NCBI GenBank assembly: GCA_045602305.1
Contig: JAZSBJ010000062.1
Coordinates: 1-33,342, forward strand
Direction: 5' to 3'
DNA from: Eubacteriales bacterium
GTDB taxonomy: Bacteria > Bacillota > Clostridia > Oscillospirales > CAG-272
Length of the DNA: 33,342 nucleotides
Part shown: positions 1-15,098 of the stretch, piece by piece
Position numbering within the stretch: the first letter of the stretch is position 1
Layout: each line of letters opens with the position of its first letter
Position numbers and translations under genes: made by a program
Notes under the pieces: model-generated
Told to the model about the DNA's origin: nothing
What the model saw: the letters and a program-made list of their open reading frames with translations, nothing else
The model's database searches: none

Positions 1-10
1 CTTTCTCCTT
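1..10 (-). promoter_or_regulatory. Shine-Dalgarno (AAGGAGAAAG) for a further minus-strand gene beyond the left edge
   Basis: 1-10 ctttctcctt reads AAGGAGAAAG on the minus strand and points out of the window, suggesting the operon continues. Confidence 0.55.
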
Positions 11-11
11 A

Positions 12-283
12 GGCAAGAGAGAATAGTACGAACTCGGTTTTGGAAGGCAAGAACCCGTATATGCGTCGGCAAATTCCCTCGCAATATTGTAATATTGCCG
101 CGATAATTTGTCTCGCCTATCCAAATTCTTGCTCTTCCAAAACTCTAGACCCTCAAGCCTTAATTTTTTGATGATTTTGGTGCTTGGCGATTGAAGCCAA
201 GTGCGAACTTTGCAAGAGCGACAAGTGCCATAAAGCACTAAAAATTCAGGCTTTAGTGCGGGTTCGCGCTGTTCTCTCTTGCC
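12..283. mobile_element. MITE-like non-autonomous palindromic element (272 bp) with TA target duplication
   Basis: Terminal inverted repeats 12-36 and 259-283 (21/25 match), TA at 10-11 and 284-285, two long internal hairpins (about 37-143 and 155-253). Removing it restores AGT-TAA-GGAGAAAG (stop plus RBS). No transposase. Confidence 0.7.
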
Positions 284-981
284 TAACTGTATACGTAAAT
301 GTGATCCGTGTTGTCAAGCGTTAAATAATCGCTGACGGTCTTGTCCGTGTAACGGGTCTGACACACGAGGATCGAATAGCCGTTGTCATCCGCGTGCACG
401 AGGTTCTTTGCGTGAAGCGTTTCGCCCCCGTGAACAAAGGACACGAGCGTCACTCCGTCCTCGGTCGAAAGCTCGACCTCGCAGTCGTAAAGACCGCGCG
501 AGAGCAACACGACCGCAACAAAGTGTGCAAGGATGGTTTCAATGGCGATCTCGTTGTGGTTCGCGCTCATCCATTTGTCGATGAGCGTGTAGATCTTGCC
601 GTACTCAAAGTGTACAGAGGGATCAAGGTAGGGAGCAAAGAAGGATTTTTCGCCGTTTGCGATGACGTCCTTCTGCGCCTCGGAAAGCACGTAGATCACC
701 ATATCAAGTCCAAAGGAGTTTTCGTGATACAGACGGCCGAAGGCGTCCGCTACGTTGCCGAAGTAGCGGCTCTTGTAAGAATAGATCTCGGTGCGCGAAA
801 GGCGGAGATATGCAAGATAGATCAAAAGGAAATCCGCCTTAAGCAGCTTGTAGATGGCGCCGATGCCCTTGACCTGACGGTGCGAAACCGACTCGGAGCC
901 AAATAAAAATTCCTTGAGCGAGGCGGAGCGGATGCGCTCGTTTAAGAGCGCCGCCGCCTCTTTATAATTCGCGATCTCCAT
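283..981 (-). CDS. Hypothetical protein (232 aa), fifth gene of the TIR operon
   Basis: ATG 3 nt after the ParA-like stop, GAGG upstream; no motif recognised. Confidence 0.8.
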   Translation of the reverse strand: MEIANYKEAAALLNERIRSASLKEFLFGSESVSHRQVKGIGAIYKLLKADFLLIYLAYLRLSRTEIYSYKSRYFGNVADAFGRLYHENSFGLDMVIYVLSEAQKDVIANGEKSFFAPYLDPSVHFEYGKIYTLIDKWMSANHNEIAIETILAHFVAVVLLSRGLYDCEVELSTEDGVTLVSFVHGGETLHAKNLVHADDNGYSILVCQTRYTDKTVSDYLTLDNTDHIYVYS

Positions 982-984
982 AGC

Positions 985-1875
985 TTAGTCCGCGATTACC
1001 TCGGCAAGATGGCTGTAACGGCGCAAGCCTTCCTTTTCATCTGCCGTGATCTCTTTTTCCTTGCTGAGCTTGTAAAGCACGCCTTCCTTCCACTTAAAGC
1101 GCATCACCTCGTTGATGCCGAGCATATCTTCGTCCTCAACGAAATCGGTGATGAAATCGAGCGAGGGAATGCCCTCGATGCGCTCGTTGATGTCCTTGAT
1201 GCCTGCTTGCATCTGCGAAACACCGTCGATGACGGCGTCAGCGGGAACGACGGTAGGAAGAATGATGATCTCCTTGTCGCTGGCGGCACCGTACTTAAGT
1301 GCCAGCTTGTGCAAGTAATTAAAGGTACCTACACGGAACTGATGCGTCATACGCAAACAGAAAACGATCTTGTCTGCGGTGTCTACCGAGAGGATGGCGG
1401 AGAACTGATCGCCCGCCGCCGAGTCCATTACGATGCCCTTGAAGTTGTTGTTGTCGGCAAAGGTGATAAGACGCTCCATCGCGCCGTCCATTCTGCCCTC
1501 AACGTCCTTGCGGTTGAGCTGCTCGCTCGTCACGTCGACGCCAAAGAACATAACGGCTTCGTTGTCCTCAAGACCGAGCATATTTCCAACGGGAACGAAG
1601 TGGTTGTAAAGCGAGTGGTCGGAGAGGTTCGCCATACGGGAAACGGAGAAATTCTCCTCGCACTTCAAAAACTGCTTCACGTCGTACTTGCCCTTGAAAT
1701 GATCCTGCTGATTGAGAAGGAAGGTCATACCCGCACTCTCAATGTCGGTATCCATCAAAAGGATGGGGTGCTTTGCATCCGCATCGGTATGCTCTACGAG
1801 AAAGGGAACGGTGTTAAAGCAGGTGGTGGAGCGACCTGCGCCGCCCTTGTAAGAGAAAAAGGTCGAAATAAACAT
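985..1875 (-). CDS. MinD/ParA-family P-loop ATPase with variant Walker A (KGGAGRST)
   Basis: N-terminal FFSYKGGAGRSTT, Walker A' ILLMDTD, Walker B IVMDSAAG; start overlaps the upstream stop (TGATG). Confidence 0.88.
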   Translation of the reverse strand: MFISTFFSYKGGAGRSTTCFNTVPFLVEHTDADAKHPILLMDTDIESAGMTFLLNQQDHFKGKYDVKQFLKCEENFSVSRMANLSDHSLYNHFVPVGNMLGLEDNEAVMFFGVDVTSEQLNRKDVEGRMDGAMERLITFADNNNFKGIVMDSAAGDQFSAILSVDTADKIVFCLRMTHQFRVGTFNYLHKLALKYGAASDKEIIILPTVVPADAVIDGVSQMQAGIKDINERIEGIPSLDFITDFVEDEDMLGINEVMRFKWKEGVLYKLSKEKEITADEKEGLRRYSHLAEVIAD

Positions 1876-3815
1876 CAGTTGTCCTCCTCACGGGAATTTT
1901 TAATGATCTTGGAAAGGACCTCAGGCGTGGATTCCAAGCGCTCGGTCCACTCGGCAACGAATACGGAAAGATCTCTTTGCATATTTTCTTTGACCGTATC
2001 GAAGCCCGACTTGTTGTACATAATGCCGCGGATGGCGGAAAGCACGTATTCCTTCATAACGTCGGTCACAGCGACCTTCAGCTCCTCTTCGAACGAGGAA
2101 AGCGCAACGGCTTCTCCGCGCAAAGAAGCGCCGATGTTCTGGAATGCGGAGATCACAAGCTCGCTCGCGGACTTCTTGATGGCGTCGTTGATTGCGTTCT
2201 CGATGAGGAAGGACGCACGCGTAGCGGCAAGTGCCTCGCTGTGCTTTTCTTCCAGAGCTTTTATTGCCTCGGCGTGTTCCTTTTCCACGTCGCGACGCGC
2301 CTTGCGGATACCCGCCTTTTTACCCTCTTCACGGGCTTGCTCGAACTTGTTTAAGTAGTCCTTCTCGTACTTCTCGTAATAGTCGTGGAAGTCGGCAACT
2401 GCCTCAATATAACGCTCTGTGATCTTAACGTCGTAGCCACGGTCCTCCCACAGCACCTCGTCACGGGAGATGTTCTCCTGATCGAACAGCAGCTCGTAGA
2501 AGGTACCCATCTGCTTAACGGGGTATCTCGTGATGTAGAAGGCAGCCATATTGTTTGCCTTCACAAGTATAGGAAGCAGGGTGGTGTCGGTGATGTGCTT
2601 GTGGTTTAGACGCTTGGTGTAAAGCTCACCTCTCTCCTTATGACGGGGAAGGAAGGGGATGGTGTAGGTGTCGATGAGGTAGTCGTGACCTCTTTGACGA
2701 AGCTGCTCGTAGGTGTGCTGTACGTTTTGCAGAGCCGACTCCATCGTGTTGATAACGTCGCGCTTGTCGGGGTGGGTAACGTTGACGTAACCGTAAAGAA
2801 GGATAAATACGATGTAAAGGGTATTAAAGAGGGCGTTGGAGCGCTCCATACGGCCAAGGTCCTCGCGGTGAATGGCTTGGTGACCCTTTAAGAAGATGTC
2901 GTTAACGAAGTCTTCCTTGATATCGTCCTTGTAGTTTTCCCATACGTTGTTTGCAACGGCACGGCAGATGCGGCGCCACTTATCCTGACGGGGCTCGCCC
3001 TTCTTGTTGTTGTGGTTGATCTTCTCAAGAAGCTCCTCGTCCTTGGCCTGCGTTGCGTCAAGCACGCCGTTCTCGTCAAAGGTGATGTTGTAGGTCGCGT
3101 CCTCAAAGTCGGAGAACGCCTCAAGCACCGAGTATGTAAAGAAGAGAGAAGCGCGCTCGCAGTCGCGGGTGTAGGACCAACCGCGGTAGAGGGAGTGATC
3201 CTCACCGTCGTCGGGCGCGTTGGGGTCTTCCTCTACGATGACCGATTCCACGAACTCTTGGACGATGAAGGCGATCTCCTTGTCAACTCTCTCAAGGTAG
3301 TCGGCAGAGAGGGAGAGGTTGCCCGCACGCACGGCTTGGCGTACCGAGGTGAAAAAGCTGAGCGCCCAAGTCATAGCGCCCGTATAAGGGTGCTTCTTAT
3401 CAAAGAGCGCCTCGGTGCGTCCGTCCACGGTGAAGAAATTGTCCTTCTCCATCAAGTAGGGGTAAAGGCTGTAGCCGTAGGACTTGATGCAGTCGATGAT
3501 ATAGCAGGTGTTCTTCGACAAGAACTCCTTTTGCTCCTCGGTGAGCGTAACGCCGTAGCGGTTGACAAGAGAAAGCACACCCACGCATCCGTAAATATCG
3601 GAAAGGTAGCCTGCGCGCTTTTCGCGGTCGTCACTGTAGAAGATGGGAAAATCACCGCCGTGAGGGGGCTTGATCTTTTTGAGAAGGTCGTTAAGGATGG
3701 CTTCGCCGAGCTGGCGTCTGTCGGCAAAGGATTTAAAGACGATTTCCGCGCCGTCCTCGGCAGAGGCGACGTTTTGGGAGAGAATGAGGTCTTCAATCTG
3801 TTTTCTGATGGCCAT
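1875..3815 (-). CDS. Large hypothetical protein (646 aa), mostly helical, with C-terminal coiled-coil-like region
   Basis: Long ORF with AAGGAAG RBS; charged helical stretch EQAREEGKKAGIRKARRDVEKEHAEAIKALEEKH; 1-bp overlap with the ParA-like gene. Confidence 0.85.
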   Translation of the reverse strand: MAIRKQIEDLILSQNVASAEDGAEIVFKSFADRRQLGEAILNDLLKKIKPPHGGDFPIFYSDDREKRAGYLSDIYGCVGVLSLVNRYGVTLTEEQKEFLSKNTCYIIDCIKSYGYSLYPYLMEKDNFFTVDGRTEALFDKKHPYTGAMTWALSFFTSVRQAVRAGNLSLSADYLERVDKEIAFIVQEFVESVIVEEDPNAPDDGEDHSLYRGWSYTRDCERASLFFTYSVLEAFSDFEDATYNITFDENGVLDATQAKDEELLEKINHNNKKGEPRQDKWRRICRAVANNVWENYKDDIKEDFVNDIFLKGHQAIHREDLGRMERSNALFNTLYIVFILLYGYVNVTHPDKRDVINTMESALQNVQHTYEQLRQRGHDYLIDTYTIPFLPRHKERGELYTKRLNHKHITDTTLLPILVKANNMAAFYITRYPVKQMGTFYELLFDQENISRDEVLWEDRGYDVKITERYIEAVADFHDYYEKYEKDYLNKFEQAREEGKKAGIRKARRDVEKEHAEAIKALEEKHSEALAATRASFLIENAINDAIKKSASELVISAFQNIGASLRGEAVALSSFEEELKVAVTDVMKEYVLSAIRGIMYNKSGFDTVKENMQRDLSVFVAEWTERLESTPEVLSKIIKNSREEDN

Positions 3816-3840
3816 TTTATGTTCTTCCTTTCGTGTAATA

Positions 3841-4887
3841 TCAGTGGATATGCTTGGTCAAGCAGTGAAGTCCGCCGCCGCCGAGAGAGGCTTCCTTCGC
3901 GTCAAAGGGAACGATATCTCTTTCGGGGAATGCGCGCTTTACCACCTCAAGCGCCTCGGCATCGGTGGGAAGCCCAAACTGCGGCACCACCACAACGCCG
4001 TTCGCGATGGCAAAGTTGATATAGGTTTGAAGCACGGCGTCGCCCGCCTTGCGCTCAAAGGAGCCGTCCGCTTCCACGATGGTGTCGGAATCGTCCGACG
4101 TACGGAAGTATAAGTCGGGAACGGGAATGTGAATGATCGTATACGGCTCGCCGTCGGCGTTTCTCGCTGCCTTAACCGTTTTTTCGATCTCACGCACGCG
4201 CGCATAATGCGCGTTCTTCTTGTCGTCGGTCCAAGAGAGAAGCATCGTCTTTTTGTCGACAAAGAAAAGCACGTTGTCGATGTGACCGCCTGTTTCGTCC
4301 TCGGGAAGTCCCTTTTCGATCCAAACGATCTGCTTGGATGCCGTGGCTTGCTTTAAAAGCGCCTCAACCTCTTCGGTCGAAAGCCCCGGGTTGCGGTTGT
4401 CGTTCACGATGGATTCGCGAATGGCAAAGAGCGTGCCGTTGCCGTCGGGGGCAATGTTGCCGCCCTCAAGAATTAGAGGCGAGGGGGTAAGTCCGTAGCC
4501 AAAGAAGGTGGAGATGGTCTTGTCGATGGCATCGTCGTCGTCCCAAGGCTCGTACAGTCCCGCGCCGTAGGAGTTAAAGCCAAAGGAAGCCAAGCTGCGC
4601 GTGCCGTCGTCGTGGTAAACGACGCTCGAAACGGTGTCGCGCGACCAGCAGTCGTTATACTTGAGCTCAAGTATTTCTACGCGCGGATCGAGCGGATATT
4701 CCTTTACCACGTCCACAAGCTCGGGTAATACGCCCATCACAACGCGCTCGTAAGGCACGATCGCGTTGGCAAGCGCCACCATCATTTTGCGGATGGGAGC
4801 GCAGCCCTCACGCCATACGTCATCGCGCGAGGGAAATAAAATTACGGTTGCGATTTGCTTTTCTACTTCTGCAGGTAAACGGCTCAT
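3841..4887 (-). CDS. aguA: Agmatine deiminase / Porphyromonas-type peptidylarginine deiminase family protein
   Basis: Motifs RLPAE, NDCWSRD, LEGGNI.PDGNGT, NRNP, DETGGHIDN, YINF..AN..V.VPQF and C-terminal GGGGLHCLT (catalytic Cys). Symbol reflects the family, not a confirmed substrate. Confidence 0.88.
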   Translation of the reverse strand: MSRLPAEVEKQIATVILFPSRDDVWREGCAPIRKMMVALANAIVPYERVVMGVLPELVDVVKEYPLDPRVEILELKYNDCWSRDTVSSVVYHDDGTRSLASFGFNSYGAGLYEPWDDDDAIDKTISTFFGYGLTPSPLILEGGNIAPDGNGTLFAIRESIVNDNRNPGLSTEEVEALLKQATASKQIVWIEKGLPEDETGGHIDNVLFFVDKKTMLLSWTDDKKNAHYARVREIEKTVKAARNADGEPYTIIHIPVPDLYFRTSDDSDTIVEADGSFERKAGDAVLQTYINFAIANGVVVVPQFGLPTDAEALEVVKRAFPERDIVPFDAKEASLGGGGLHCLTKHIH

Positions 4888-6683
4888 TCACGTTTTCCTC
4901 TCTTTCTTTTCAGCAGTTCGCTCCCCGTCGCTTCGAGGATCTTTTCTGCCTCGGGATTAAGGTAGAGAAGATAGAAGAATGCATCGGAAAGTTCCTTCAT
5001 AGTGTCGGTTCCGGGGTCGATATTATAGGTCGTTACGGTGCTGTCGTCCTTGCCGCTGACAAGACCCTGCCCCGTGGAATACCACGCGCCGCTAAGTCCC
5101 GTTTTCTCCACGAAGATCGCGAAGCTGTAACAAAGATGAAGCAGCTTATCCTCTCTCACGGGAACGGCGATGAGGTTGTCGCACGCGGCAGAAACGACCG
5201 CCTCGGGAATGTCCGTCACCTTTCCGTTCTTATCGTGATAGAACTGCATCCACGCGGCAAGACGGGGGAACTTTTTGCCGCCCTGCTGGTCCTTGTTGTC
5301 TGCGGTGTAGTCGAGCAAGAAGTTTACGAGCTTCTTGGACTCTGCCGCCGTCACGTCGGTGGCAACGCCCATCTGCCAATCCTCAAGCCGCTTGATGCGC
5401 TCAAGGTAGGTCACGCGCACGTGGAGCGCGTCGAGAAGCACGGTGTTGACCGTCTTGCGCGATTTTTCAAGAAGCGCAACGAATTCCGAAATAAAGCGGA
5501 TGAATTCGTACGAGGTTTCGATCTGTGCGTCGTAGGAGTAGCGCTCCGTTTCGCCGCGAAGCCAGTCGATAAACTCCTCGGGAACGCCCAAAACCTCGCG
5601 AAGCGCGGAGTAATCGAAGAAGTTTTGTGCAAGGTCGGACGCGAAGAACTCATTGAAAATATCCTTGTCGCGCTCATCTTCAATGTTGTATTGCTCAAAA
5701 AGATCGTCCACCGTTTTGCCGTTGAACTCTTGGAAGAAGACATCCACCTTGTTTCGCGTGCAGAACTCACTGCGAATGAGGCGCGTCACCTCTTTACGGC
5801 TTTCGGGTGTCTTTGCGATGAAGTCCTTGATCTTGCGGAAGGCGGCATCTCGGTTTGCCTCTTCCTCGGCGGGTATGTAGTAGTAATACTTGACGCCGTT
5901 CTTCTTGGGATCAAAGGTCTTATATACGCCCTTGCCCGCCTCGTTGCCGAGCAGGTTGGTGGCGATGATCATACAAGAGTAGGTATTGCAATCGTATTCG
6001 ATCAGCTCGTTGGATAGCACGTGGGTTTCGCGCAAGCTGTCCGTGCAGACCTCGGTCGAGCCCTTAATGTCGTCGCTGATGGTGTTTGCGGTACACTTGC
6101 CGCGTACGCAACGGTTGAGAAGCTCGTTGAACTTCTGCGACCTTTTGACGTTCTCCGCCTTTCTCTTGATGTTCTCAAAGACGGCGTTGACGTATTGCTC
6201 GCGGATCTCCTCACAGATGAGGGAAAGCTCTTCCTCGGTGGACGAGGCGTTGTAGCGGCGCACGATAATCTCCTTCTTGATCTCTGCGAGCTTCATCACG
6301 TCCTTGGGGATCTCGTCCATCTTGGTGTCGTCAACGATGATGGGGAAGATCTTGATGTAGGGGCGCGTCGTGTCCGAGGTCTTCATACGCATCACCTGCT
6401 CAAGCTCATCCTTGACCTCTACGGAATAGAGGGAATTCTTGGACATCAAGAAAACGAGAACGCAGCAGCTCTCAAGCGCGCGCCGAATGGTCTTGCGGTA
6501 GTCGTCGCCGCCGATGTTGGTGTCCTTTCCGTTGTGCTGGTACATACACCAGTGATTGATCTTCATAGCATCCAAGCGCTCGACAAGCCGCATCGCCACG
6601 TCCTTGTCCTTGCTGGATAGAGAGGTAAAAATGGAGTTTCGGTCAAGGCTGACCGTTTCCACCAGTTTGCCGTAATCTAGCAT
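4884..6683 (-). CDS. TIR-domain protein (N-terminal TIR, about aa 17-145) with a large uncharacterised C-terminal region
   Basis: IFTSLSSKD (betaA), GDDYRKTIRRALESCCVLVFLMSKNSLYSVEVKDEL with the catalytic-position Glu93, and IFPIIVD; AAGGAG RBS. Confidence 0.88.
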   Translation of the reverse strand: MLDYGKLVETVSLDRNSIFTSLSSKDKDVAMRLVERLDAMKINHWCMYQHNGKDTNIGGDDYRKTIRRALESCCVLVFLMSKNSLYSVEVKDELEQVMRMKTSDTTRPYIKIFPIIVDDTKMDEIPKDVMKLAEIKKEIIVRRYNASSTEEELSLICEEIREQYVNAVFENIKRKAENVKRSQKFNELLNRCVRGKCTANTISDDIKGSTEVCTDSLRETHVLSNELIEYDCNTYSCMIIATNLLGNEAGKGVYKTFDPKKNGVKYYYYIPAEEEANRDAAFRKIKDFIAKTPESRKEVTRLIRSEFCTRNKVDVFFQEFNGKTVDDLFEQYNIEDERDKDIFNEFFASDLAQNFFDYSALREVLGVPEEFIDWLRGETERYSYDAQIETSYEFIRFISEFVALLEKSRKTVNTVLLDALHVRVTYLERIKRLEDWQMGVATDVTAAESKKLVNFLLDYTADNKDQQGGKKFPRLAAWMQFYHDKNGKVTDIPEAVVSAACDNLIAVPVREDKLLHLCYSFAIFVEKTGLSGAWYSTGQGLVSGKDDSTVTTYNIDPGTDTMKELSDAFFYLLYLNPEAEKILEATGSELLKRKRGKRE

Positions 6684-6748
6684 ACCTTGCTCCTTTTGCT
6701 TCGTTTTGCGCGTGCTTGCGCACGCAGTATATATAATATATCATTATA

Positions 6749-6776
6749 AGTATATCATTTTTTGCGTTTTTGTCAA
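6749..6776 (-). promoter_or_regulatory. sigma-A promoter of the TIR operon
   Basis: TTGACA (6776-6771), 16 bp spacer, extended -10 TGaTATACT (hexamer 6754-6749). Confidence 0.7.
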
Positions 6777-6809
6777 GTGCTTTGTAGAAAAAAAGCACTT
6801 TCCGCAGGG

Positions 6810-6838
6810 AAAAAGAAAAGCCCTCGCAGGGCGAGGGC
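6810..6838 (-). terminator. Intrinsic terminator after the TerB-like gene
   Basis: GCCCTCGC/GCGAGGGC stem (6820-6838) followed by a U-rich run on the minus strand. Confidence 0.65.
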
Positions 6839-6844
6839 AAAGGG

Positions 6845-7264
6845 TCATTCCATTAAGCGCAAAAGAAAGGCGTTTTCCGCTCCCGTGACCTTGTGATCGG
6901 AAGCAAGAATGCAAAGGCAAAGGGTGCAAAGCGCGCGCTTGCCCTTTTTGTCAAGGCTGTCGACAACGCGGTCGGTCGCCGCGCGCATTCCCTCACTCTT
7001 AAAGCGCTCGGTCAGGCGCGAAAGATGCTCACGGGTGAACTCTGCGGAAAACAGCTCCGACATAAAATCAAGCTCCTCGTCCGAGAGGGCGCCATCCGCC
7101 CCCAAGGCAGAAGCAACGACGGCGGAAAGAAGCTCTTTTTCGCTCCCTTCCTTTAAGGCGCGCAAAGAGAGAAGCGCCTCGGCGGCACTCTTTCTTGCGG
7201 TAGAAAGCAAGGACGTGCGGCTGGACGCGGTATACTGTTTCAGCAGACTTTGAAGCTCGGACAT
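6845..7264 (-). CDS. TerB-family (tellurite-resistance-like) protein, 139 aa
   Basis: Two TerB-like motifs, ALGADGALSDEELDFM and ILASDHKVTGAENAFL. Start moved to ATG 7264, after GAGGTG. Confidence 0.7.
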   Translation of the reverse strand: MSELQSLLKQYTASSRTSLLSTARKSAAEALLSLRALKEGSEKELLSAVVASALGADGALSDEELDFMSELFSAEFTREHLSRLTERFKSEGMRAATDRVVDSLDKKGKRALCTLCLCILASDHKVTGAENAFLLRLME

Positions 7265-7297
7265 CGTGACACCTCTGTTTCGTGTTTTCTTGCTTCC

Positions 7298-7327
7298 ATT
7301 GTAGCACGCACCCGCGCGGGTTGTCAA
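7298..7327 (-). promoter_or_regulatory. sigma-A promoter of the TerB-like gene
   Basis: TTGACA (7327-7322), 18 bp spacer, TGcTACAAT (hexamer 7303-7298). Confidence 0.55.
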
Positions 7328-7345
7328 TCAATTTTGGGAAAAAAG

Positions 7346-7374
7346 TTGCAATTTTCGTAAGACTGTGTTACAAT
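7346..7374 (+). promoter_or_regulatory. sigma-A promoter of glpK
   Basis: TTGCAA (7346-7351), 17 bp spacer, TGtTACAAT (hexamer 7369-7374). Confidence 0.55.
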
Positions 7375-7407
7375 AAAAGGGAATAAAACAGACGGGAGAG
7401 AATTCGT

Positions 7408-8928
7408 ATGAAAAAGTATATTCTCGCTTTGGATGAGGGAACGACGAGTGCCCGCGCCATCCTCTTTGATAAGGATGCTCGCGTCGTGTCCGTCGCGCAA
7501 AATACTTTTCCCCAATATTATCCCGAGGCAGGGTGGGTAGAGCAAGACCCCCTAGAGCTTTACGCCGCCGAGTACGCCGCCCTCACCGAGTGCATTGCCA
7601 AAAGTGGCATCGACCCTCACGAGATCGCCGCCATCGGCATCACCAACCAAAGAGAAACGACGGTCGTTTGGGATAAAAAAACGGGCGAGCCCATCCATCC
7701 CGCCATCGTTTGGCAGTGCCGTCGTACGGCGGACATCTGCGAACGGCTCACGTCGCAAGGACACGGCGCGTACGTCAAGGAAAAAACGGGGCTTCGCATC
7801 GATCCTTATTTCAGTGCCACCAAGATCGCGTGGATCCTAGACCGCGTCAAGGGAGCGAGAGAACGCGCCGAGCGCGGCGAGCTTGCCTTCGGCACGGTGG
7901 ATACTTGGCTTCTTTACAAGCTGACGGGAGGCGCCGTTTTCGCCACGGACAGAACCAACGCCTCGCGCACGATGCTTTGCAACGTTCATACGGGAGATTG
8001 GGATGACGGGCTCCTTAAAATCTTTGGCGTTCCGCGCGCAATGCTCCCCGAGATCCGTTCCAGCAGTGAAATTTACGGCTACCTTGACTGTATGGGTGCG
8101 CGCATTCCCATCGCGGGCATCGCGGGTGACCAGCAGTCCGCCCTCTTCGGGCAAGGGTGCTTTTCCGCGGGAGATGCAAAAAACACCTACGGCACGGGAT
8201 GCTTCTTGCTTGCCCATACGGGCAACCGTCCCGTTACGAGTCGCGAGGGAATGCTCACCACCGTCGCCGCCACCGAAAAGGGAAGAGATATCGAGTACGC
8301 GCTTGAGGGAAGCGTGTTCGTTGGCGGTGCTGTCATCAGCTGGCTCAAAAACGAGCTTCACCTCATTCACGCCGCAGCCGACAGCGAGTATTTTGCATCG
8401 CGCGTCGCGGACACGGGCGGCGTTTATATCGTTCCCGCCTTTGCGGGGCTCGGCGCGCCCGTTTGGGATATGCACGCGCGCGGCACCGTGGTGGGGCTCA
8501 CCGCAGGCACGGGCAGAAATCACCTTATCCGCGCAGCCCTTGAATCCATCGCCTATCAAACGGACGACGTGCTATGTGCTATGAACCGCGATATGGCGGC
8601 GCTCGGAATGGCGGGCATCACCACCCTCAGGGTGGACGGCGGTGCCTCGCGCAACGACCTTCTTATGCAAATCCAAAGCGATATCTCCGCCGTTCCCGTT
8701 TTGCGTGCAGAGAATGCGGAAGCCACGGCGCTCGGCGCCGCGTTCCTGGCGGGGCTCGCAGTCGGCTTCTTTGAAAGCAGGGAAGCACTGCCTGTAAAAT
8801 GTAAAGAAAAGATTGCTTTTGAACCGAAAATTGACAACGATGAGCGACAAAAAAGAAAAGACGGATGGGCAAGAGCAGTACGTGCCTGTCGCGCCTTTTC
8901 GAGTGTTTATGAAAGCGAGGAAATTTAA
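7408..8928 (+). CDS. glpK: Glycerol kinase
   Basis: YILALDEGTTSAR, GITNQRETT, IVWQCRRT, DPYFSATK, TDRTNASRT, GDQQSALFG, KNTYGTGCF, YALEGS, LRVDGGA. Confidence 0.97.
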   Translation: MKKYILALDEGTTSARAILFDKDARVVSVAQNTFPQYYPEAGWVEQDPLELYAAEYAALTECIAKSGIDPHEIAAIGITNQRETTVVWDKKTGEPIHPAIVWQCRRTADICERLTSQGHGAYVKEKTGLRIDPYFSATKIAWILDRVKGARERAERGELAFGTVDTWLLYKLTGGAVFATDRTNASRTMLCNVHTGDWDDGLLKIFGVPRAMLPEIRSSSEIYGYLDCMGARIPIAGIAGDQQSALFGQGCFSAGDAKNTYGTGCFLLAHTGNRPVTSREGMLTTVAATEKGRDIEYALEGSVFVGGAVISWLKNELHLIHAAADSEYFASRVADTGGVYIVPAFAGLGAPVWDMHARGTVVGLTAGTGRNHLIRAALESIAYQTDDVLCAMNRDMAALGMAGITTLRVDGGASRNDLLMQIQSDISAVPVLRAENAEATALGAAFLAGLAVGFFESREALPVKCKEKIAFEPKIDNDERQKRKDGWARAVRACRAFSSVYESEEI

Positions 8929-9846
8929 ATGGGAGTCTTTATTACCTCTTTGCGCGTGCCGTCCTCCGACGGGATTCATACCCTTGCGGGAATTGCCGCC
9001 GTGCCTTCGGGCAAGCCCCGTGCGATCCTACATATCGTACACGGAATGACCGAGCATATCTCCCGTTATACACCCACGATGCGCGCCCTTGCCGAAAAGG
9101 GCATTCTGTGCGTCGGCTACGATAACCTCGGTCACGGCTATACCGCAGGAAAGGGAGAACACGGCTTCATCGCCGAAAAGGACGGCGACGAGCTTCTCAT
9201 CAAGGACGTTGCCCTCTTTGCCGCCGCCGTTAAGGCGCGCTACGGCAGCGACCTTCCCTATGTCTTGATGGGGCACAGTATGGGCTCCTTTATCGTTCGC
9301 CTTGCCGCCGCCAAGACCTTCCGCCCCGATAAGCTCATCATTATGGGCACGGGCGGCAAAAATCCCGTGGCAGGCGTCGCCCTTGGGCTGATCGCCCTCA
9401 ATCGCAAATGCTACGGGGCAAAGCACGTATCCCCCTTTATCGACAAGCTCGCCTTCGGAAGCTACAACGACCGCTTTAAAAGCGAGGGGAACGAGCGCAA
9501 TCTTTGGCTCACCACCCGCGCCGACATTCGCAAAAAATATGCCGCCGATCCTCTTTGCACCTTCCGCTTTTCCATTGCCGCAATGGGCGACTTGATCCGC
9601 CTTTTAAAGAAAAGCAACGATGCCGCTTGGTACGCCGCGCTGGATAAAGATCTCCCCGTTCTTCTCGTATCGGGAACGGACGATCCCGTCGGCGCCTTCG
9701 GTAAGGGCGTCAAGGAAGTCTACGACAAGCTCATCGCTACCGACCACAACGCCAAGATCAAGCTCTACGAGGGCGCCCGTCACGAGATCCTAAACGATCA
9801 CTCGCGCGACGAGGTCGTCGCCGACCTGCTTGCATTTATCGAGTAA
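8929..9846 (+). CDS. Alpha/beta hydrolase, lysophospholipase/monoacylglycerol lipase-like
   Basis: IVHGMTEH..RY, YDNLGHG, nucleophile GHSMG, GTDDPVG, ARHEILN. Confidence 0.9.
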   Translation: MGVFITSLRVPSSDGIHTLAGIAAVPSGKPRAILHIVHGMTEHISRYTPTMRALAEKGILCVGYDNLGHGYTAGKGEHGFIAEKDGDELLIKDVALFAAAVKARYGSDLPYVLMGHSMGSFIVRLAAAKTFRPDKLIIMGTGGKNPVAGVALGLIALNRKCYGAKHVSPFIDKLAFGSYNDRFKSEGNERNLWLTTRADIRKKYAADPLCTFRFSIAAMGDLIRLLKKSNDAAWYAALDKDLPVLLVSGTDDPVGAFGKGVKEVYDKLIATDHNAKIKLYEGARHEILNDHSRDEVVADLLAFIE

Positions 9847-9866
9847 AAGTAAACAAATCCATACAA

Positions 9867-9898
9867 AAAGAGCCGTTTTCTTGCGAAAACGGCTCTTT
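9867..9898. terminator. Bidirectional terminator between convergent lipase and cotJC genes
   Basis: Perfect 14-bp stem AAAGAGCCGTTTTC/GAAAACGGCTCTTT with a 4-nt loop. Confidence 0.8.
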
Positions 9899-9901
9899 CC
9901 T

Positions 9902-10501
9902 TTACTTCCTGTCGTATGCAGGATTAAAGGCGTAAAAGTTTTTCGAGTCCATTCTGTCCTGTGCGATGCGAAGCGCGTCGCCAAAGCGCTGATAATGCAC
10001 AAGCTCACGCTGGCGCAGGTACTTAATGGGATCGCGCACGTCGGGATCGTCCACAAGACGCAAAATGTTGTCGTAGGTCACGCGCGCCTTTTGCTCTGCC
10101 GCTAAGTCCTCGTTCAGGTCAGCGATCACGTCCCCCTTGATGCCCACGTACTTCATATCAAAGGGCACGCCTGCGGCACTCTGCGGATACAGCCCCGCCG
10201 TATGGTCCACAAAATAGATGTCCATACCTGCGCGCTTCATCTCCTCGGGGGATACCCCCTTCGTCAGCTGATGCAGGATGGCGGCGATCATCTCAAGGTG
10301 TGCAAGCTCCTCTGTGCCCACGTCCGTTAAAATTCCAACCACCTCGCCGTAAGGCATCGAATATCTTTGATGCAAATACCGCATCGAAGCGGCAAGCTCT
10401 CCGTCAGGTCCGCCAAGCTGGCTGATGATCACCTTCGCGATCGCGGGGTTCGGGTTTTTGATCTTAACGGGGTATTGCAGCTTTTTGTCATAGCTCCACA
10501 T
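9902..10501 (-). CDS. cotJC: Spore coat protein CotJC (manganese catalase family)
   Basis: MWSYDKKLQYPV, QLGGPDGELAASMRYL, TDVGTEELAHLEM, EDLAAEQKAR, REL.H.QRFG. Confidence 0.95.
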   Translation of the reverse strand: MWSYDKKLQYPVKIKNPNPAIAKVIISQLGGPDGELAASMRYLHQRYSMPYGEVVGILTDVGTEELAHLEMIAAILHQLTKGVSPEEMKRAGMDIYFVDHTAGLYPQSAAGVPFDMKYVGIKGDVIADLNEDLAAEQKARVTYDNILRLVDDPDVRDPIKYLRQRELVHYQRFGDALRIAQDRMDSKNFYAFNPAYDRK

Positions 10502-10504
10502 AAG

Positions 10505-10765
10505 TTAATTCGCCTCCTTTTCCCAAGGCCAAGGCCCGTCGATCCATTTCCAATGCGCGCCGTCGCAAGCCTCGTTATTCGTCAGCGGTCCGTACTTTTT
10601 CTCGTACTCCGCACGCAAACGCGCGGCGATCTCGCGGTGTCGGCAATAGTACGCGAGGGCGTGGCGGCAATCGGGATGCCCGTCAAGATAAAGCACCGCC
10701 TCGTAGACGGCAAAGTCCTCTGCTTGAAGCCTGCGAAGCAGGCGTGTACGCTCGTCACACATCAC
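10505..10765 (-). CDS. cotJB: Spore coat protein CotJB
   Basis: FAVYEAVLYLDGHP, YEKKYGPL, WKWIDGPWPWE. Confidence 0.93.
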   Translation of the reverse strand: MMCDERTRLLRRLQAEDFAVYEAVLYLDGHPDCRHALAYYCRHREIAARLRAEYEKKYGPLTNNEACDGAHWKWIDGPWPWEKEAN

Positions 10766-11049
10766 GCTTTCCTCCCATCGCCGAAAAAGGGCTTGTCAAG
10801 CGCCGTAAAGATGGTGCCGCGCCCAAGCCCTTCGTCGGGCTCGTATAGCTTTTCAAAGGCTTGCTCGGGTGAGTACACCATCGCAAGCGACGCCCCCGCC
10901 AAGGGGTCGTTTCCCGTTGTGCAGGGGGAAGGGGTATGGCAGTTGCCGATTGCGTCCCCCTCGCCTCTTTCGCCGTTTGTGACGCGGCGACAGCGGCAGC
11001 CGCAGCCGTTTTCCCCAAACAGCGGATAAAAAATGTCTTTCGATTCCAC
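10762..11049 (-). CDS. cotJA: Spore coat associated protein CotJA
   Basis: LAMVYSPEQAFEKLYEPDEGLGRGTIFTALDKPF. GTG start at 11049, 8 nt after AAGGAG. Confidence 0.88.
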   Translation of the reverse strand: MESKDIFYPLFGENGCGCRCRRVTNGERGEGDAIGNCHTPSPCTTGNDPLAGASLAMVYSPEQAFEKLYEPDEGLGRGTIFTALDKPFFGDGRKA

Positions 11050-11140
11050 GGAAGTCACTCCTTTGTAGTTATGGGCTCTCGCCCATATACATCATATGAC
11101 GCAAAAGAAAACCCGTTCCCGCAGAGGACGCGCCTGCGTC

Positions 11141-11169
11141 TTGACAATTTTCAAGGCGCGTGATATAAT
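11141..11169 (+). promoter_or_regulatory. Consensus sigma-A promoter
   Basis: TTGACA (11141-11146), 17 bp spacer, TGaTATAAT (hexamer 11164-11169). Confidence 0.85.
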
Positions 11170-11204
11170 TTATCTTGTAAAAACCTTATATTTTGGGAGG
11201 CAAT

Positions 11205-11447
11205 ATGAAAAAAATACGCACGTTTGCCCTGACAGTTTTACTTTTGCTTTGCTTTACTTTGCTTTTTGCTTGCAACGATGCCCCCGATCTCGACGGCGAC
11301 GGTGGCAAAGACCCGACACCCGATGGAGAAAATAGCGGCGAAAACGGCGGCAATTCGAACGAAAACGGCGGCGAAAGCGCGCTTTCCGAATACGGAGATA
11401 ACGTCGTCGATTACGATGCGCTTTTCGGGGGGAATGACAATGACTAA
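11205..11447 (+). CDS. Small acidic low-complexity lipoprotein (80 aa)
   Basis: GGAGG RBS; MKK, hydrophobic core and LFAC lipobox; D/G/E/N-rich body. Confidence 0.75.
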   Translation: MKKIRTFALTVLLLLCFTLLFACNDAPDLDGDGGKDPTPDGENSGENGGNSNENGGESALSEYGDNVVDYDALFGGNDND

Positions 11448-14680: not shown

Positions 14681-14690
14681 CAGAAAAAAG

Positions 14691-14720
14691 AAAAAGCAGG
14701 GCAAAACGCCCTGCTTTTTT
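14691..14720 (+). terminator. Intrinsic terminator (probably bidirectional)
   Basis: AAAAAGCAGGGC/GCCCTGCTTTTT stem directly after the stop codon. Confidence 0.8.
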
Positions 14721-14724
14721 GCGC

Positions 14725-14903
14725 GGTGGCGGAGAAGGAGAGATTTGCCCTTCCTGAAATATAGTCGCCCGCGCCCCTCGGCATAGCCTCACGGCTTGAG
14801 CTCCTTATTTCAGTTACGGCTCGCAAAAAACGGTTATTAACCGTTTTTTGCTTCGCCGACCCGCGCCGTGACCGGCGCTCGCAAATCTCTCCTTCCCGCC
14901 ACC
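14725..14903. repeat. Palindromic structured element bounded by a direct and an inverted copy of the tRNA-Ser 3' end
   Basis: 14727-14747 is identical to 14943-14963 (21 bp); 14882-14901 is its reverse complement with one deletion. Internal hairpins at about 14754-14813, 14817-14858 and 14863-14878. Confidence 0.8.
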
Positions 14904-14905
14904 AA

Positions 14906-14943
14906 AAATAAAAGCAACCACCGAATGGTGGTTGCTTTTATTT
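14906..14943 (-). terminator. Terminator hairpin after tRNA-Ser
   Basis: Perfect 17-bp stem AAATAAAAGCAACCACC/GGTGGTTGCTTTTATTT with a 4-nt loop. Confidence 0.75.
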
Positions 14944-15035
14944 GGCGGAGAAGGAGAGATTTGAACTCTCGCGCCGGATAAGCCCGGCCTACATCCTTAG
15001 CAGGGACGCCTCTTCGGCCACTTGAGTACTTCTCC
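14943..15035 (-). tRNA. tRNA-Ser (anticodon GCU)
   Basis: Acceptor stem GGAGAAG/CTTCTCC plus GCCA; anticodon stem CGTCC/GGATG with loop CTGCTAA; long variable arm; GTTCAAATC T-loop. Confidence 0.97.
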
Positions 15036-15069
15036 ATAGACAGACTCCCGATTTCAAGTCTGCCATACC

Positions 15070-15098
15070 ATTATACACAAGAAAAGCACAAAAGTCAA
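15070..15098 (-). promoter_or_regulatory. sigma-A promoter of tRNA-Ser
   Basis: TTGACT (15098-15093), 17 bp spacer, TATAAT (15075-15070). Confidence 0.75.

What the first reader, a model, noticed from the sequence alone, without database searches (positions are those of the whole stretch)
283..6776. Candidate undescribed system: TIR protein + deiminase + helical/coiled-coil protein + variant ParA ATPase + unknown
Seen: one promoter (6749-6776) drives five co-oriented genes with junctions of -4 (ATGA), +25, -1 (TGATG) and +3 nt, and an RBS at 1-10 implies at least a sixth gene. Established: bacterial TIR domains with the catalytic Glu are NADases or signal generators in immunity (Thoeris, CBASS, Pycsar, SPARTA); agmatine deiminases normally sit in polyamine-metabolism operons. 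Inference: a deiminase translationally coupled to a TIR gene, beside an NTPase switch and two unknowns, looks like a multi-component defence or signalling system. It might sense or remove a polyamine-like signal, or citrullinate a protein target. I do not recognise this gene set as a named system.
Basis: partly seen in the sequence, partly recalled or inferred. Interest (0 to 1): 0.88.

Follow-up and report, generated by a model that had tools for sequence, protein, structure and literature searches.

The report
ParA-toroid defence operon with TIR
This is a rare, horizontally scattered six-gene operon of gut Clostridia that matches the computationally predicted, untested "APE" anti-phage system, and it carries two polyamine-type enzymes whose role in the system is still open.

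Summary
Five co-oriented minus-strand genes have junctions of -4, +25, -1 and +3 nt behind a promoter-like site at 6776-6749. The predicted sixth gene exists: contig C107 overlaps window bases 1-57 and starts a 268-aa tandem AdoMet-decarboxylase-like gene.

The set is not a chance adjacency. All 17 related loci from Clostridia MAGs keep deiminase, helical protein, ATPase, unknown and decarboxylase in the same order, with unrelated flanks. Ten of the 17 also keep the TIR gene.

It is not undescribed. A preprint of 22 Oct 2026 (Li, Burroughs, Aravind) defines the APE system: alpha-alpha toroid, ParA, effector. One variant has an upstream TIR fused to an inactive HKD domain, plus a deiminase or AdoMet decarboxylase. 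I tested these features:
- toroid with a long C-terminal helix;
- Walker A Lys-to-Arg ParA;
- TIR plus a PLD/HKD-fold domain.

New here:
- the decarboxylase is present in 19 of 19 loci;
- it is a pseudo-dimer in which only the C-terminal half is catalytically intact;
- host genomes show no convincing spermidine synthase and no AguB;
- the two enzymes may therefore convert arginine to agmatine to N-carbamoylputrescine, rather than deplete AdoMet.

Nothing has been tested experimentally.

The parts
6749..6776 (-). Promoter-like site (TTGACA, 16 nt, TATACT, TG-extended), 65 nt upstream of the TIR start codon
   Evidence: It is a consensus match only; the region has no excess of such sites over shuffles (4 found, mean 4.1).
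6820..6838 (-). Terminator-like hairpin ending the upstream TerB-like gene. It marks the upstream border of the operon.
   Evidence: 8-bp stem, 7 G-C pairs, T-rich tail. The TerB-like gene (6845-7327, Pfam TerB E 2.2e-5) has no counterpart in the 18 other loci.
4884..6683 (-). TIR protein (599 aa): N-terminal TIR domain with invariant Glu93, a helical linker, and a C-terminal PLD/HKD-fold domain that lacks the HxK(x)4D residues
   Evidence: Pfam TIR_2 E 1e-10. AF2 model pLDDT 85.0. Residues 13-166 match TIR structures at Z 13.2 (rmsd 3.0, 126 aligned). Residues 194-588 match SauUSI at Z 10.1, FAM83-type 4urj at Z 10.0 and phospholipases D at Z 9.7. E93 and H221 are invariant in 26 of 26; the consensus HILSNEL has no Lys.
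3841..4887 (-). Agmatine-deiminase-like enzyme (348 aa), overlapping the TIR gene by 4 nt
   Evidence: PAD_porph E 3.9e-89. TIGR03380 aguA scores 304.2 bits against a cut-off of 381.8. Full-length alignment to Arabidopsis agmatine iminohydrolase 1vkp, E 3.3e-55. D84, H202, D204 and C342 are invariant in 15 of 15.
1875..3815 (-). Alpha/alpha-toroid protein (646 aa) with a long C-terminal helical region: the 'A' of APE
   Evidence: AF2 pLDDT 89.5, pTM 0.79; helix 463-534 followed by four more helices. VIA-align Z 20.0 to D-mannose isomerase and Z 19.4 to the TED of complement C4b (275 aligned, rmsd 3.5); the two are tied. No Pfam or NCBIfam family.
985..1875 (-). ParA/MinD-like ATPase (296 aa) with Walker A KGGAGRS (Arg in place of the P-loop Lys), overlapping the toroid gene by 1 nt
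   Evidence: NF047398 E 2.7e-14. K10, G11, G12, A13, G14, R15 and S16 are invariant in 16 of 16. The preprint gives Lys-to-Arg as a mark of its ConB2 clade.
283..981 (-). 232-aa protein of no known family in the 'effector' position. It equals the first ~238 residues of a ~740-aa protein found at the same position in other loci.
   Evidence: hhalign of the long-form profile against the short-form profile: E 1.1e-71, long-form residues 9-238. No Pfam, NCBIfam, PADLOC or PHROG match. No PDB sequence match with a profile. The ESM Atlas gave nothing usable.
1..282 (-). Leader between gene 5 and the off-window decarboxylase gene: RBS AAGGAG at 1-10, a weak promoter-like site at 114-86, and a 116-nt insert (87-202) carrying a short multi-copy repeat
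   Evidence: C107 bases 1-57 equal window 57-1. Rfam finds nothing here.

Best explanation
The locus is a member of the APE (Alpha-alpha toroid, ParA, Effector) class of predicted anti-phage and anti-plasmid systems. It belongs to the variant that also carries a TIR protein with an inactive HKD domain, a deiminase and an AdoMet-decarboxylase-like enzyme.

Shown here:
- a six-gene unit conserved in order across distantly related gut Clostridia, with unrelated flanks;
- a cytoplasmic alpha/alpha-toroid protein with a long C-terminal helical region;
- a translationally coupled ParA-like ATPase whose P-loop Lys is Arg;
- a TIR domain with the catalytic Glu;
- a deiminase and a pyruvoyl-type decarboxylase that both keep their catalytic residues.

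Inferred, following the preprint:
- the toroid-ParA pair is the constant sensor and switch; ParA dimerises on nucleotide binding, and the toroid recognises or coats an invader;
- the remaining genes are back-up effectors; the TIR protein would cleave NAD+ once triggered.

My own inference on the two enzymes: they act in sequence. The tandem SpeD-like enzyme decarboxylates L-arginine to agmatine, and the deiminase turns agmatine into N-carbamoylputrescine plus ammonia. This would drain arginine or make an amine used by the system. The preprint suggests instead that the decarboxylase drains AdoMet.
For: Conservation.
- 17 of 17 genome-contig loci hold PAD, toroid, ParA, unknown and decarboxylase in the same order and on the same strand. 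10 of 17 hold the TIR-599 homologue directly upstream of the deiminase; the 4-nt TIR-deiminase overlap is seen in the window and in four of these loci (L005, L007, L008, L019). Flanking gene clusters are not shared, apart from a few between closely related loci and a glpK/mgsA neighbourhood described below.
- A same-genus genome (G011) has a divergent version, 22-27% identical in the toroid protein: TIR380, toroid, ParA, 770-aa protein, decarboxylase.

APE features tested.
- Toroid plus a 72-residue helix.
- C4b, C3 and alpha2-macroglobulin TEDs among the tied top hits, Z 18-19.4.
- KGGAGRS invariant in 16 of 16, matching the ConB2 Lys-to-Arg trait.
- TIR fold at Z 13.2 and PLD fold at Z about 10, without the Lys and Asp of the HKD motif.
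- The preprint's section 21 describes exactly this accessory set.

Sporadic distribution. Toroid homologues occur in 2 of 41 relatives, counting the window's own genome, and in 2 of 399 genomes of the class, the second being a weak 25.7-bit partial hit.

Enzymes.
- The decarboxylase is present in 19 of 19 loci (window via C107).
- Its N-half has Gly65-Gly66 where T. maritima AdoMetDC has Glu62-Ser63, and Asp where it has Cys83.
- Its C-half keeps Glu190-Ser191-His192, His196 and Cys211.
- In 5 of 5 host genomes the only AdoMet_dc matches are this gene, and the only PAD_porph match is the operon's deiminase. The same holds for the deiminase in 4 further genomes.
- No convincing spermidine synthase in 5 of 5. 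No AguB over the cut-off in 6 of 6.
- The nearest tandem SpeD homologues outside APE (35-40% identity) sit in speD-speE-speB-X and speD-speE-X operons that already hold a separate SpeD. The Michael laboratory reads that situation as a sign of an arginine or ornithine decarboxylase (PMC10407285, passages read).
Against: There is no experiment anywhere. The preprint is purely computational, and immunity is inferred from domain content and patchy distribution.

Context and mobility.
- The locus is not in a recognisable defence island. Its neighbours are glpK, a hydrolase, PS decarboxylase, mnmE, proS and pflB.
- No relative was found in viral contigs or plasmids.

Structure.
- The toroid matches sugar isomerases, epimerases and GH76 enzymes as well as it matches TED (Z 20.0 against 19.4). 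The TED link is therefore not specific.
- I could not test the Ser/Thr said to replace the thioester Cys.
- The bDLD6 effector described in the preprint could not be tested. The window's 232-aa protein covers only the first third of the long form.

Arginine reading.
- It rests on context only.
- G011 has no deiminase anywhere (93% complete).
- The two genomes with polyamine-operon homologues also hold PLP-dependent decarboxylases, so the tandem enzyme is not their only candidate arginine decarboxylase.
- Sequence alone does not tell AdoMet from arginine or ornithine.

In this genome the decarboxylase is separated from the other genes by 287 nt.
Confidence: 0.62

Rival explanations
1. It is the same APE-type conflict system, but the decarboxylase is a true AdoMet decarboxylase that drains S-adenosylmethionine during infection, as the preprint suggests. 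The deiminase then acts on an unrelated guanidino compound.
For: The preprint's proposal. The only family matches are AdoMet_dc (E 7.7e-30) and TIGR03330 (71.4 bits against a 75.65 cut-off). The C-half keeps the Ser, His and Cys set of T. maritima AdoMetDC. The lack of a spermidine synthase also fits a pure drain. G011 has the decarboxylase without any deiminase.
Against: An agmatine-deiminase-like gene accompanies the decarboxylase in 18 of 19 loci. That would be an odd partner for an AdoMet drain. The nearest homologues outside APE sit beside a separate SpeD, which argues for a different substrate. SpeD homologues have repeatedly become arginine or ornithine decarboxylases (PMC10407285, abstract and passages).
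Confidence: 0.22
2. It is not immunity. It is a horizontally mobile metabolic or structural module. The toroid protein is an enzyme (sugar isomerase, epimerase, glycosidase or terpene-cyclase-like). The ParA-like protein positions it. The two polyamine-type enzymes make an agmatine-derived building block. The TIR-like domain acts as a nucleoside- or NAD-utilising transferase.
For: The top structural matches of the toroid are sugar isomerases, epimerases and GH76 enzymes, with squalene-hopene cyclase also listed (Z 19-20). The TIR model also matches nucleoside 2'-deoxyribosyltransferases at Z 10.8. The neighbours are housekeeping genes. PADLOC finds no defence match.
Against: The accessory genes differ between loci (the TIR-HKD gene in some, an unknown ~515-aa gene in others), and the third-position protein has short and long forms. 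The ParA carries the Lys-to-Arg variant that the preprint ties to conflict clades. Distribution is extremely patchy, even within one genus. The catalytic Glu of NAD-cleaving TIRs is invariant. TIR structures score higher than transferases (Z 13.2 against 10.8).
Confidence: 0.12
3. It is a chance adjacency of a polyamine gene pair with an unrelated TIR/ATPase cluster.
For: Agmatine deiminase and SpeD are normally polyamine genes. In this genome the decarboxylase is 287 nt away from the rest and has its own weak promoter-like site.
Against: The same order is found in 17 of 17 related loci from several families of Clostridia, with different flanks. The two enzyme genes flank the core on both sides. 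The TIR gene and the deiminase gene overlap by 4 nt. No AguB over the cut-off and no convincing SpeE partner in the hosts searched.
Confidence: 0.02

Closest known systems
APE system (Alpha-alpha toroid, ParA, Effector): Li, Burroughs and Aravind, bioRxiv 10.64898/2026.10.19.760177, 22 Oct 2026. I read sections 18 and 21 and passages by search; supplements were closed.
   Same: Toroid protein with a long C-terminal helix next to a ParA with Arg in Walker A. A third 'effector' gene. An upstream TIR fused to an inactive HKD-type domain. Extra deiminase and AdoMet-decarboxylase genes. TED-like structural matches.
   Different: The preprint writes 'a deiminase or AdoMet decarboxylase'. In this branch the decarboxylase is in 19 of 19 loci and the deiminase in 18 of 19, so they come together. 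The window's third gene is a short 232-aa form, not the full multi-domain bDLD6 protein. I could not see the preprint's figures or supplements, so I do not know whether these very loci are listed there.
Thoeris and other TIR-based bacterial immunity (SPARTA, TIR-STING, TIR-SAVED): general knowledge, recalled
   Same: A TIR domain with the conserved catalytic Glu. The model matches SPARTA TIR-APAZ, AbTir and ThsB structures.
   Different: No ThsA-type (SIR2, Macro or SLOG), Argonaute, SAVED or STING partner. The only PADLOC hit is SAVED_TIR at E 0.0098. The TIR gene is dispensable in 7 of 17 related loci.
ParA/MinD partition and positioning ATPases
   Same: Deviant Walker A with the signature Lys (KGG...), a DxD motif, and ParA-like length and profile matches.
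   Different: The P-loop Lys is Arg (KGGAGRS). No ParB or centromere context. The partner is a toroid protein.
Thioester domain (TED) of complement C3 and C4 and alpha2-macroglobulins
   Same: Alpha/alpha-toroid fold. C4b TED Z 19.4, rmsd 3.5 over 275 residues.
   Different: 9-10% identity. The match is tied with sugar isomerases and GH76 enzymes. According to the preprint there is no CGEQ thioester motif. The protein is cytoplasmic and has no macroglobulin domains.
Polyamine enzymes: agmatine deiminase AguA, and SpeD with its neofunctionalised or fused forms (PMC10407285)
   Same: A full-length agmatine-deiminase fold with the catalytic Cys, His and Asp. A pyruvoyl-type SpeD fold. The tandem SpeD fusion recalls the SpeD-SpeDC fusions described there.
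   Different: Both enzymes score below the NCBIfam equivalog cut-offs. The hosts have no AguB over the cut-off and no convincing SpeE. In the described V. vadensis fusion the C-terminal domain is the dead one. Here the N-terminal half is dead and the C-terminal half is intact.

Membership tests
APE system (preprint 10.64898/2026.10.19.760177) | [quoted passage not shown] | tested here: met
   AF2 model pLDDT 89.5. Toroid matches over residues ~5-490 at Z 18-20. Single helix 463-534, then four more helices to 645.
APE system (preprint 10.64898/2026.10.19.760177) | Toroid related to the TED of complement C3/C4, with Ser/Thr at the place of the thioester Cys | tested here: inconclusive
   C4b, C3, A2ML1 and alpha2M TEDs score Z 18-19.4, tied with sugar isomerases and GH76 at Z 19-20. 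The residue-level equivalence of a Ser/Thr could not be read from the outputs.
APE system (preprint 10.64898/2026.10.19.760177) | Adjacent ParA of the ConB2 assemblage: Arg in lieu of the Walker A Lys, and a PG motif after sensor-1 | tested here: met
   KGGAGRS is invariant in 16 of 16. An invariant P95-V96-G97 lies downstream of D42-x-D44, but I cannot tell whether it is the preprint's 'PG'. No tree against the preprint's clades was made.
APE system (preprint 10.64898/2026.10.19.760177) | Conserved three-gene neighbourhood: toroid, ParA, variable effector | tested here: met
   Toroid, ParA and a third gene occur in the same order in 19 of 19 loci: the window, 17 genome-contig loci and G011.
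APE system (preprint 10.64898/2026.10.19.760177) | Effector with a central bacterial Death-like domain 6 flanked by helical, SH3 and OB domains | not tested
The 232-aa protein equals only residues 9-238 of the ~740-aa form. Profiles of both forms find nothing significant in PDB sequences.
APE system (preprint 10.64898/2026.10.19.760177) | [quoted passage not shown] | tested here: met
   TIR at Z 13.2. C-terminal residues 194-588 match PLD-fold proteins at Z 9.7-10.1, a middling score. The HxK(x)4D motif (recalled) is not kept: H221 is invariant, but Leu223 and Ile228 stand at the Lys and Asp places. Deiminase and decarboxylase are present.
Thoeris | ThsB-type TIR together with a ThsA-type effector (SIR2 or Macro with SLOG) | tested here: not met
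   No PADLOC Thoeris model matches any of the seven proteins searched. No such domain was found by Pfam.
Agmatine deiminase AguA (TIGR03380 equivalog) | Score over the curated cut-off, and an AguB partner for putrescine synthesis | tested here: not met
   304.2 bits against a cut-off of 381.8. No AguB-family match over the cut-off in 6 of 6 genomes. The fold and the catalytic D84, H202, D204 and C342 are kept, so it probably works like an agmatine deiminase.
S-adenosylmethionine decarboxylase SpeD (TIGR03330 equivalog) | Score over the curated cut-off, a self-processing Glu-Ser site, and a spermidine synthase partner | tested here: not met
   71.4 bits against a cut-off of 75.65. The Glu-Ser site is kept only in the C-half. 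There is no convincing SpeE in 5 of 5 genomes: one 25.1-bit partial match and one match below the cut-off.

The most novel reading that the evidence does not exclude
The two 'polyamine' enzymes are a dedicated arginine to agmatine to N-carbamoylputrescine line built into an immune system. Its product is used chemically by the other parts. It could be the amine nucleophile that reacts with, or caps, an ester-type reactive bond in the TED-like toroid; small amines are the classical reagents for complement thioesters (recalled). Or it could be the acceptor that the TIR domain joins to ADP-ribose, by analogy with the histidine-ADPR signal of type II Thoeris (recalled). Either would be a new link between amino-acid-derived amines and bacterial immunity.
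Probability: 0.12. Interest if true: 0.85.

Novelty: new member of a known kind. Interest (0 to 1): 0.5.

Why it matters
APE is one of 28 ParA-centred conflict systems predicted in a preprint of October 2026, and none of them has been tested. This locus is a compact, intact example from a small gut Clostridia genome, with clear borders, and it could be cloned as it stands.

If the system works as predicted, it would bring three things into bacterial immunity:
- a complement-like toroid domain;
- a ParA switch with an Arg P-loop;
- a TIR effector.

The finding added here gives a simple biochemical test. The decarboxylase is universal in this branch. It is a pseudo-dimer with a dead N-half. It is paired with an agmatine-deiminase-like enzyme in hosts that have no convincing spermidine synthase and no AguB. 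The test is which substrate it takes: arginine or AdoMet. The answer decides between metabolite depletion and amine production as the role of these genes.

The tandem SpeD family has at least 154 clusters at 90% identity. It may also interest the polyamine field, because it is a prokaryotic fusion of two SpeD folds in which the N-terminal half is the dead one.

Tried and rejected
- PADLOC and PHROGs gave only weak P-loop or TIR-level hits.
- Literature searches for 'KGGVGR', for TIR domain + agmatine deiminase + defense system and for S-adenosylmethionine decarboxylase + TIR + anti-phage found nothing relevant. The preprint came up only with the terms agmatine deiminase, TIR, ParA and conflict systems, 3 of 4 required.
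- The ESM Atlas gave no usable hit for the TIR protein's C-terminal part or for the 232-aa protein.
- hhalign found no relation between the ~515-aa extra gene of the TIR-less loci and the TIR, toroid or unknown families. It also found none between the C-terminal part of the long 'unknown' and the TIR protein.
- Profiles of the short and long 'unknown' found nothing significant among PDB sequences.
- Complex prediction of the ParA with toroid residues 455-646 returned 'no answer' (score 0.00). This is no evidence either way.
- No relative of the toroid protein was found in viral contigs by pattern scan or in plasmids by tblastn.
- No RNA holder was listed among sequencing runs, so nothing can be said about expression.
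- Rfam found no RNA family in window 1-7500.
- I tried to show that the tandem SpeD is the only possible arginine decarboxylase in the two genomes where it sits in a polyamine operon. This failed, because both genomes also hold PF02784 and PF01276 decarboxylases.
- I considered placing the decarboxylase on a tree with the characterised SpeD, SpeDA and SpeDC proteins. I dropped this because their sequences could not be fetched by accession, and the source paper reports that arginine decarboxylases arose several times.
- The preprint's figures and supplements (Figure 5D, S1, S2G-I) and the supplement of PMC10407285 (Fig. S5, active-site residues) were not available. They may list these loci or give residues that settle the substrate.

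Full report
WHAT IS THERE

The window is a complete contig (G000:C62) of a fragmented genome of 1.72 Mb in 193 contigs, 86.9% complete. On the minus strand, one search lists five ORFs:
- 4884-6683 (599 aa)
- 3841-4887 (348 aa)
- 1875-3815 (646 aa)
- 985-1875 (296 aa)
- 283-981 (232 aa)

A promoter-like site (TTGACA, 16 nt, TATACT, 11 of 12, TG-extended) lies at 6776-6749. A terminator-like hairpin at 6838-6820 closes the upstream TerB-like gene. The promoter scan as a whole is not above shuffles (4 found, mean 4.1), so the site is plausible but not proven.

Family searches give:
- TIR_2 (E 1e-10) for the 599-aa protein;
- PAD_porph (E 3.9e-89) for the 348-aa protein, with aguA TIGR03380 at 304 bits against a cut-off of 382;
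- the NCBIfam 'KGGVGR-motif variant AAA ATPase' domain (E 2.7e-14, below its cut-off) for the 296-aa protein;
- nothing for the 646-aa and 232-aa proteins.

PADLOC and PHROGs give nothing beyond weak P-loop or TIR-level hits.

THE SIXTH GENE

Contig C107 of the same genome matches window bases 1-57 at 100% in reverse complement. An ATG at C107:63, 5 nt beyond window base 1, opens a 268-aa protein with two AdoMet_dc (SpeD) matches. Pyruvate formate-lyase and its activase follow. A 1591-nt contig of a public run covers window 1-130 with its last 130 bases and no mismatch, so the DNA does run on to the left.

In this genome 287 nt separate gene 5 from the decarboxylase. In the related loci the two genes abut or overlap. 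The spacer holds a weak promoter-like site (114-86) and a 116-nt insert. Depth spikes in the metagenome contigs show that the insert carries a short multi-copy repeat. This probably explains why the assembly broke here.

IS THE GENE SET REAL?

The 646-aa protein has 101 homologues with E up to 1e-3 in the word-indexed search, all unnamed or 'hypothetical'. It has 253 representatives in the exhaustive search, 39 of them at E up to 1e-30.

A pattern scan of 185,579 species genomes returned 17 loci. All are from Clostridia MAGs labelled Lachnospiraceae, Oscillospiraceae, Christensenellaceae, Acutalibacteraceae, Scatosoma and the like. tblastn with the window's proteins and all-against-all clustering of ORFs show the following.
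- All 17 loci carry deiminase, toroid protein, ATPase, 'unknown' and decarboxylase in that order on one strand.
- Ten also carry a ~600-aa homologue of the TIR protein directly upstream of the deiminase; a 4-nt overlap like the window's is seen in four of them (L005, L007, L008, L019). I call this type A; the window belongs to it.
- Seven lack the TIR gene (type B). They have a ~740-aa protein in place of the 232-aa one. In 6 of the 7 there is an extra ~515-aa gene of no known family after the decarboxylase. The seventh locus ends 355 nt after the decarboxylase.
- The 232-aa protein is homologous to residues 9-238 of the long form (hhalign E 1.1e-71).
- Flanking genes are not shared between loci, with two exceptions: a few clusters shared between closely related loci, and a recurrent glpK/mgsA neighbourhood.

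Among 40 relatives of the window's genome, only one (G011, same genus) has a toroid homologue, at 22-27% identity. Its order is TIR (380 aa), toroid, ATPase, 770-aa protein, decarboxylase. It has no deiminase anywhere in a 93%-complete genome. Across 399 scored genomes of the class, the toroid profile hits only the window's own genome and one weak partial match. The unit is therefore conserved, rare and patchily distributed, which is the pattern of an accessory, horizontally moving system.

IT HAS BEEN DESCRIBED

[quoted passage not shown]'. I read its outline, sections 18 and 21 in full, and passages found by term. I could not see its figures or supplements.

Section 21 defines the APE system as a three-gene neighbourhood:
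- a ParA of their 'ConB2' assemblage;
- a variable effector.

One effector type has a bacterial Death-like domain 6 core with helical, SH3 and OB domains. [quoted passage not shown] The work is computational throughout.

MEMBERSHIP TESTS

Toroid. With a 52-sequence alignment, AlphaFold2 gives pLDDT 89.5 and pTM 0.79. The model has paired helices up to about residue 460, one 72-residue helix (463-534) and four further helices. Foldseek's best hits are (alpha/alpha)6 enzymes: GH76, invertases, squalene-hopene cyclase and cellobiose 2-epimerase. In the VIA-align second look, D-mannose isomerase scores Z 20.0 and the C4b TED scores Z 19.4 (275 residues, rmsd 3.5). C3, A2ML1 and alpha2-macroglobulin TEDs score Z 18-19. 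The toroid is confirmed. The TED relationship is compatible but not distinguished from the sugar enzymes.

ParA. K10-G-G-A-G-R15-S16 is invariant in 16 of 16 sequences, which matches the ConB2 trait.

TIR protein. With 26 sequences the model has pLDDT 85.0.
- Residues 13-166 match TIR domains: Z 13.2 to a Hydra TIR, and Foldseek hits to RPS4, SPARTA TIR-APAZ and AbTir.
- Residues 194-588 match PLD-fold proteins: SauUSI Z 10.1, the FAM83-type 4urj Z 10.0, and phospholipases D Z 9.7. These scores are middling, but four independent PLD-superfamily entries agree.
- The alignment keeps His221 but has Leu and Ile where the HxK(x)4D motif (recalled) needs Lys and Asp. This fits 'inactive HKD'.
- Glu93, at the place of the catalytic Glu of NAD-cleaving TIRs (recalled), is invariant in 26 of 26.
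- The C-terminal domain is found only in about 35 clusters, all ~600-aa TIR proteins.

Death-like effector.

THE TWO ENZYMES

The deiminase aligns end to end with solved agmatine deiminases (Arabidopsis 1vkp E 3.3e-55; E. faecalis 2jer). It keeps D84, H202, D204 and C342 in 15 of 15 sequences.

The decarboxylase is a tandem of two SpeD folds.
- Aligned to T. maritima and A. aeolicus AdoMetDC, the N-half has Gly65-Gly66 in place of the self-processing Glu-Ser, and Asp in place of Cys83.
- The C-half keeps Glu190-Ser191-His192, His196 and Cys211.
- Both patterns hold in 19 of 19 sequences.
- It is thus a pseudo-dimer with one active site, in the C-terminal half. This is the reverse of the V. vadensis SpeD-SpeDC fusion described by the Michael laboratory (PMC10407285, passages read).

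Host genomes.
- In 5 of 5 host genomes searched, this gene is the only AdoMet_dc match and the operon's deiminase is the only PAD_porph match. The same holds for the deiminase in four type-B genomes.
- No convincing spermidine synthase was found in 5 of 5. There was one 25.1-bit partial match and one match below the cut-off.
- No AguB over the cut-off was found in 6 of 6.
- These genomes are MAGs, so absence is 'not found', not proven.

Homologues outside APE. A search of 399 class genomes with the decarboxylase found two other tandem homologues (35-40% identity) and one ordinary 127-aa SpeD. The two tandem ones lie in polyamine operons: speD-speE-speB(agmatinase)-tandem, and speD-speE-tandem. 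They sit next to a separate SpeD. That is the 'anomalous second SpeD' situation that the Michael laboratory found to mean arginine or ornithine decarboxylase.

However, those two genomes also hold PLP-dependent decarboxylases, so the argument is suggestive only.

Weighing this, I favour arginine to agmatine (decarboxylase) to N-carbamoylputrescine (deiminase) over the preprint's AdoMet-depletion idea, at roughly 2 to 1. The substrate has not been shown.

HOW IT MOST LIKELY WORKS

Shown:
- the architecture;
- the conservation;
- the intact catalytic residues.

Inferred:
- The toroid-ParA pair, translationally coupled and constant in all 19 loci, is the sensing and switching core.
- The Arg P-loop suggests slow or no hydrolysis, so nucleotide-dependent dimerisation would act as a latch.
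- The TIR-HKD protein, present in type A, replaced by other genes in type B and shorter in G011, is an interchangeable effector that would cleave NAD+.
- The 232-aa protein is a short version of the third-position effector or adaptor.
- The enzyme pair either drains a metabolite (arginine or AdoMet) or supplies an amine.

My attempt to get computational support for binding between the ParA and the toroid C-terminal helices gave no verdict.

AGAINST AN IMMUNE ROLE

- No experiment exists.
- The neighbours are housekeeping genes.
- No phage or plasmid copy was found.
- The toroid looks as much like a sugar enzyme as like a TED.

I give a non-immune metabolic or structural module about 12%.

VERDICT

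It is a conserved multi-component conflict-type system, but it is already named (APE) in a very recent preprint. The TIR is accessory rather than central. Protein citrullination has no support.
- Novelty: a new member of a known, purely predicted kind.
- Interest is moderate (0.5). The system is untested and unusual. This report adds a concrete, cheap biochemical question (arginine or AdoMet) and a compact locus that could be cloned as it stands.

Noticed in passing
window 1-282; G000:C1:21414-21581 (L023 4415-4582): The spacer before the decarboxylase gene shares about 90% identity over ~166 nt (window 1-86 and 203-282) with the region just upstream of a GH95-like glycosidase gene on contig C1. 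The similarity runs up to the RBS. The window has an extra 116 nt (87-202). Metagenome contigs pile up on 152-189 and 231-266 (word depth up to 92), so a short multi-copy repeat sits here. There is no Rfam match.
   Followed up: partly
window 6845-7327 (minus strand): A 160-aa TerB-domain protein (Pfam TerB E 2.2e-5) lies directly upstream of the operon on the same strand. It has its own promoter-like site (7327-7298) and its own terminator-like hairpin. It is not found next to any of the 18 related loci.
   Followed up: partly
L004 (G011:C23:7000-26000), 8481-15903: A same-genus genome carries a strongly diverged APE variant (TIR 380 aa, toroid 715 aa, ParA 311 aa, 770-aa protein, tandem SpeD 269 aa) with no deiminase. 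It sits between methylglyoxal synthase and a PocR/AraC regulator followed by glpK. The window's operon also lies next to glpK, and L012 and L020 have mgsA just upstream of the TIR gene. This may be a recurrent insertion neighbourhood.
   Followed up: partly
L013 15807-17324; L014 11237-12790; L015 10687-12252; L016 15799-17385; L018 15911-17440; L021 16301-17908: The TIR-less loci carry an extra conserved gene of 505-535 aa after the decarboxylase. It has no Pfam or NCBIfam match and no profile similarity to the other components. In L021 a 990-aa protein with a weak TIR_2 match and TPR repeats follows it.
   Followed up: partly
L029 (G090:C207) 1560-4948; L028 (G277:C34) 9935-12483: Tandem SpeD-fold proteins of ~264 aa also occur at the end of ordinary polyamine operons (speD-speE-speB-X and speD-speE-X). 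The family has at least 154 clusters at 90% identity, all labelled simply 'S-adenosylmethionine decarboxylase'. Its substrate seems not to be established.
   Followed up: partly
L013 7177-8181: In one related locus a YhcG/DUF1016 PDDEXK nuclease gene lies about 700 nt upstream of the deiminase. It is the only defence-type neighbour seen among the flanks that I annotated.
   Followed up: no
window 7408-33342: The rest of the contig is housekeeping: glpK, alpha/beta hydrolases, a GNAT-like protein, phosphatidylserine decarboxylase, an MprF-like TM protein, mnmE, an ABC sugar transporter and prolyl-tRNA synthetase. No other defence genes were seen among the 10 proteins scanned.
   Followed up: partly
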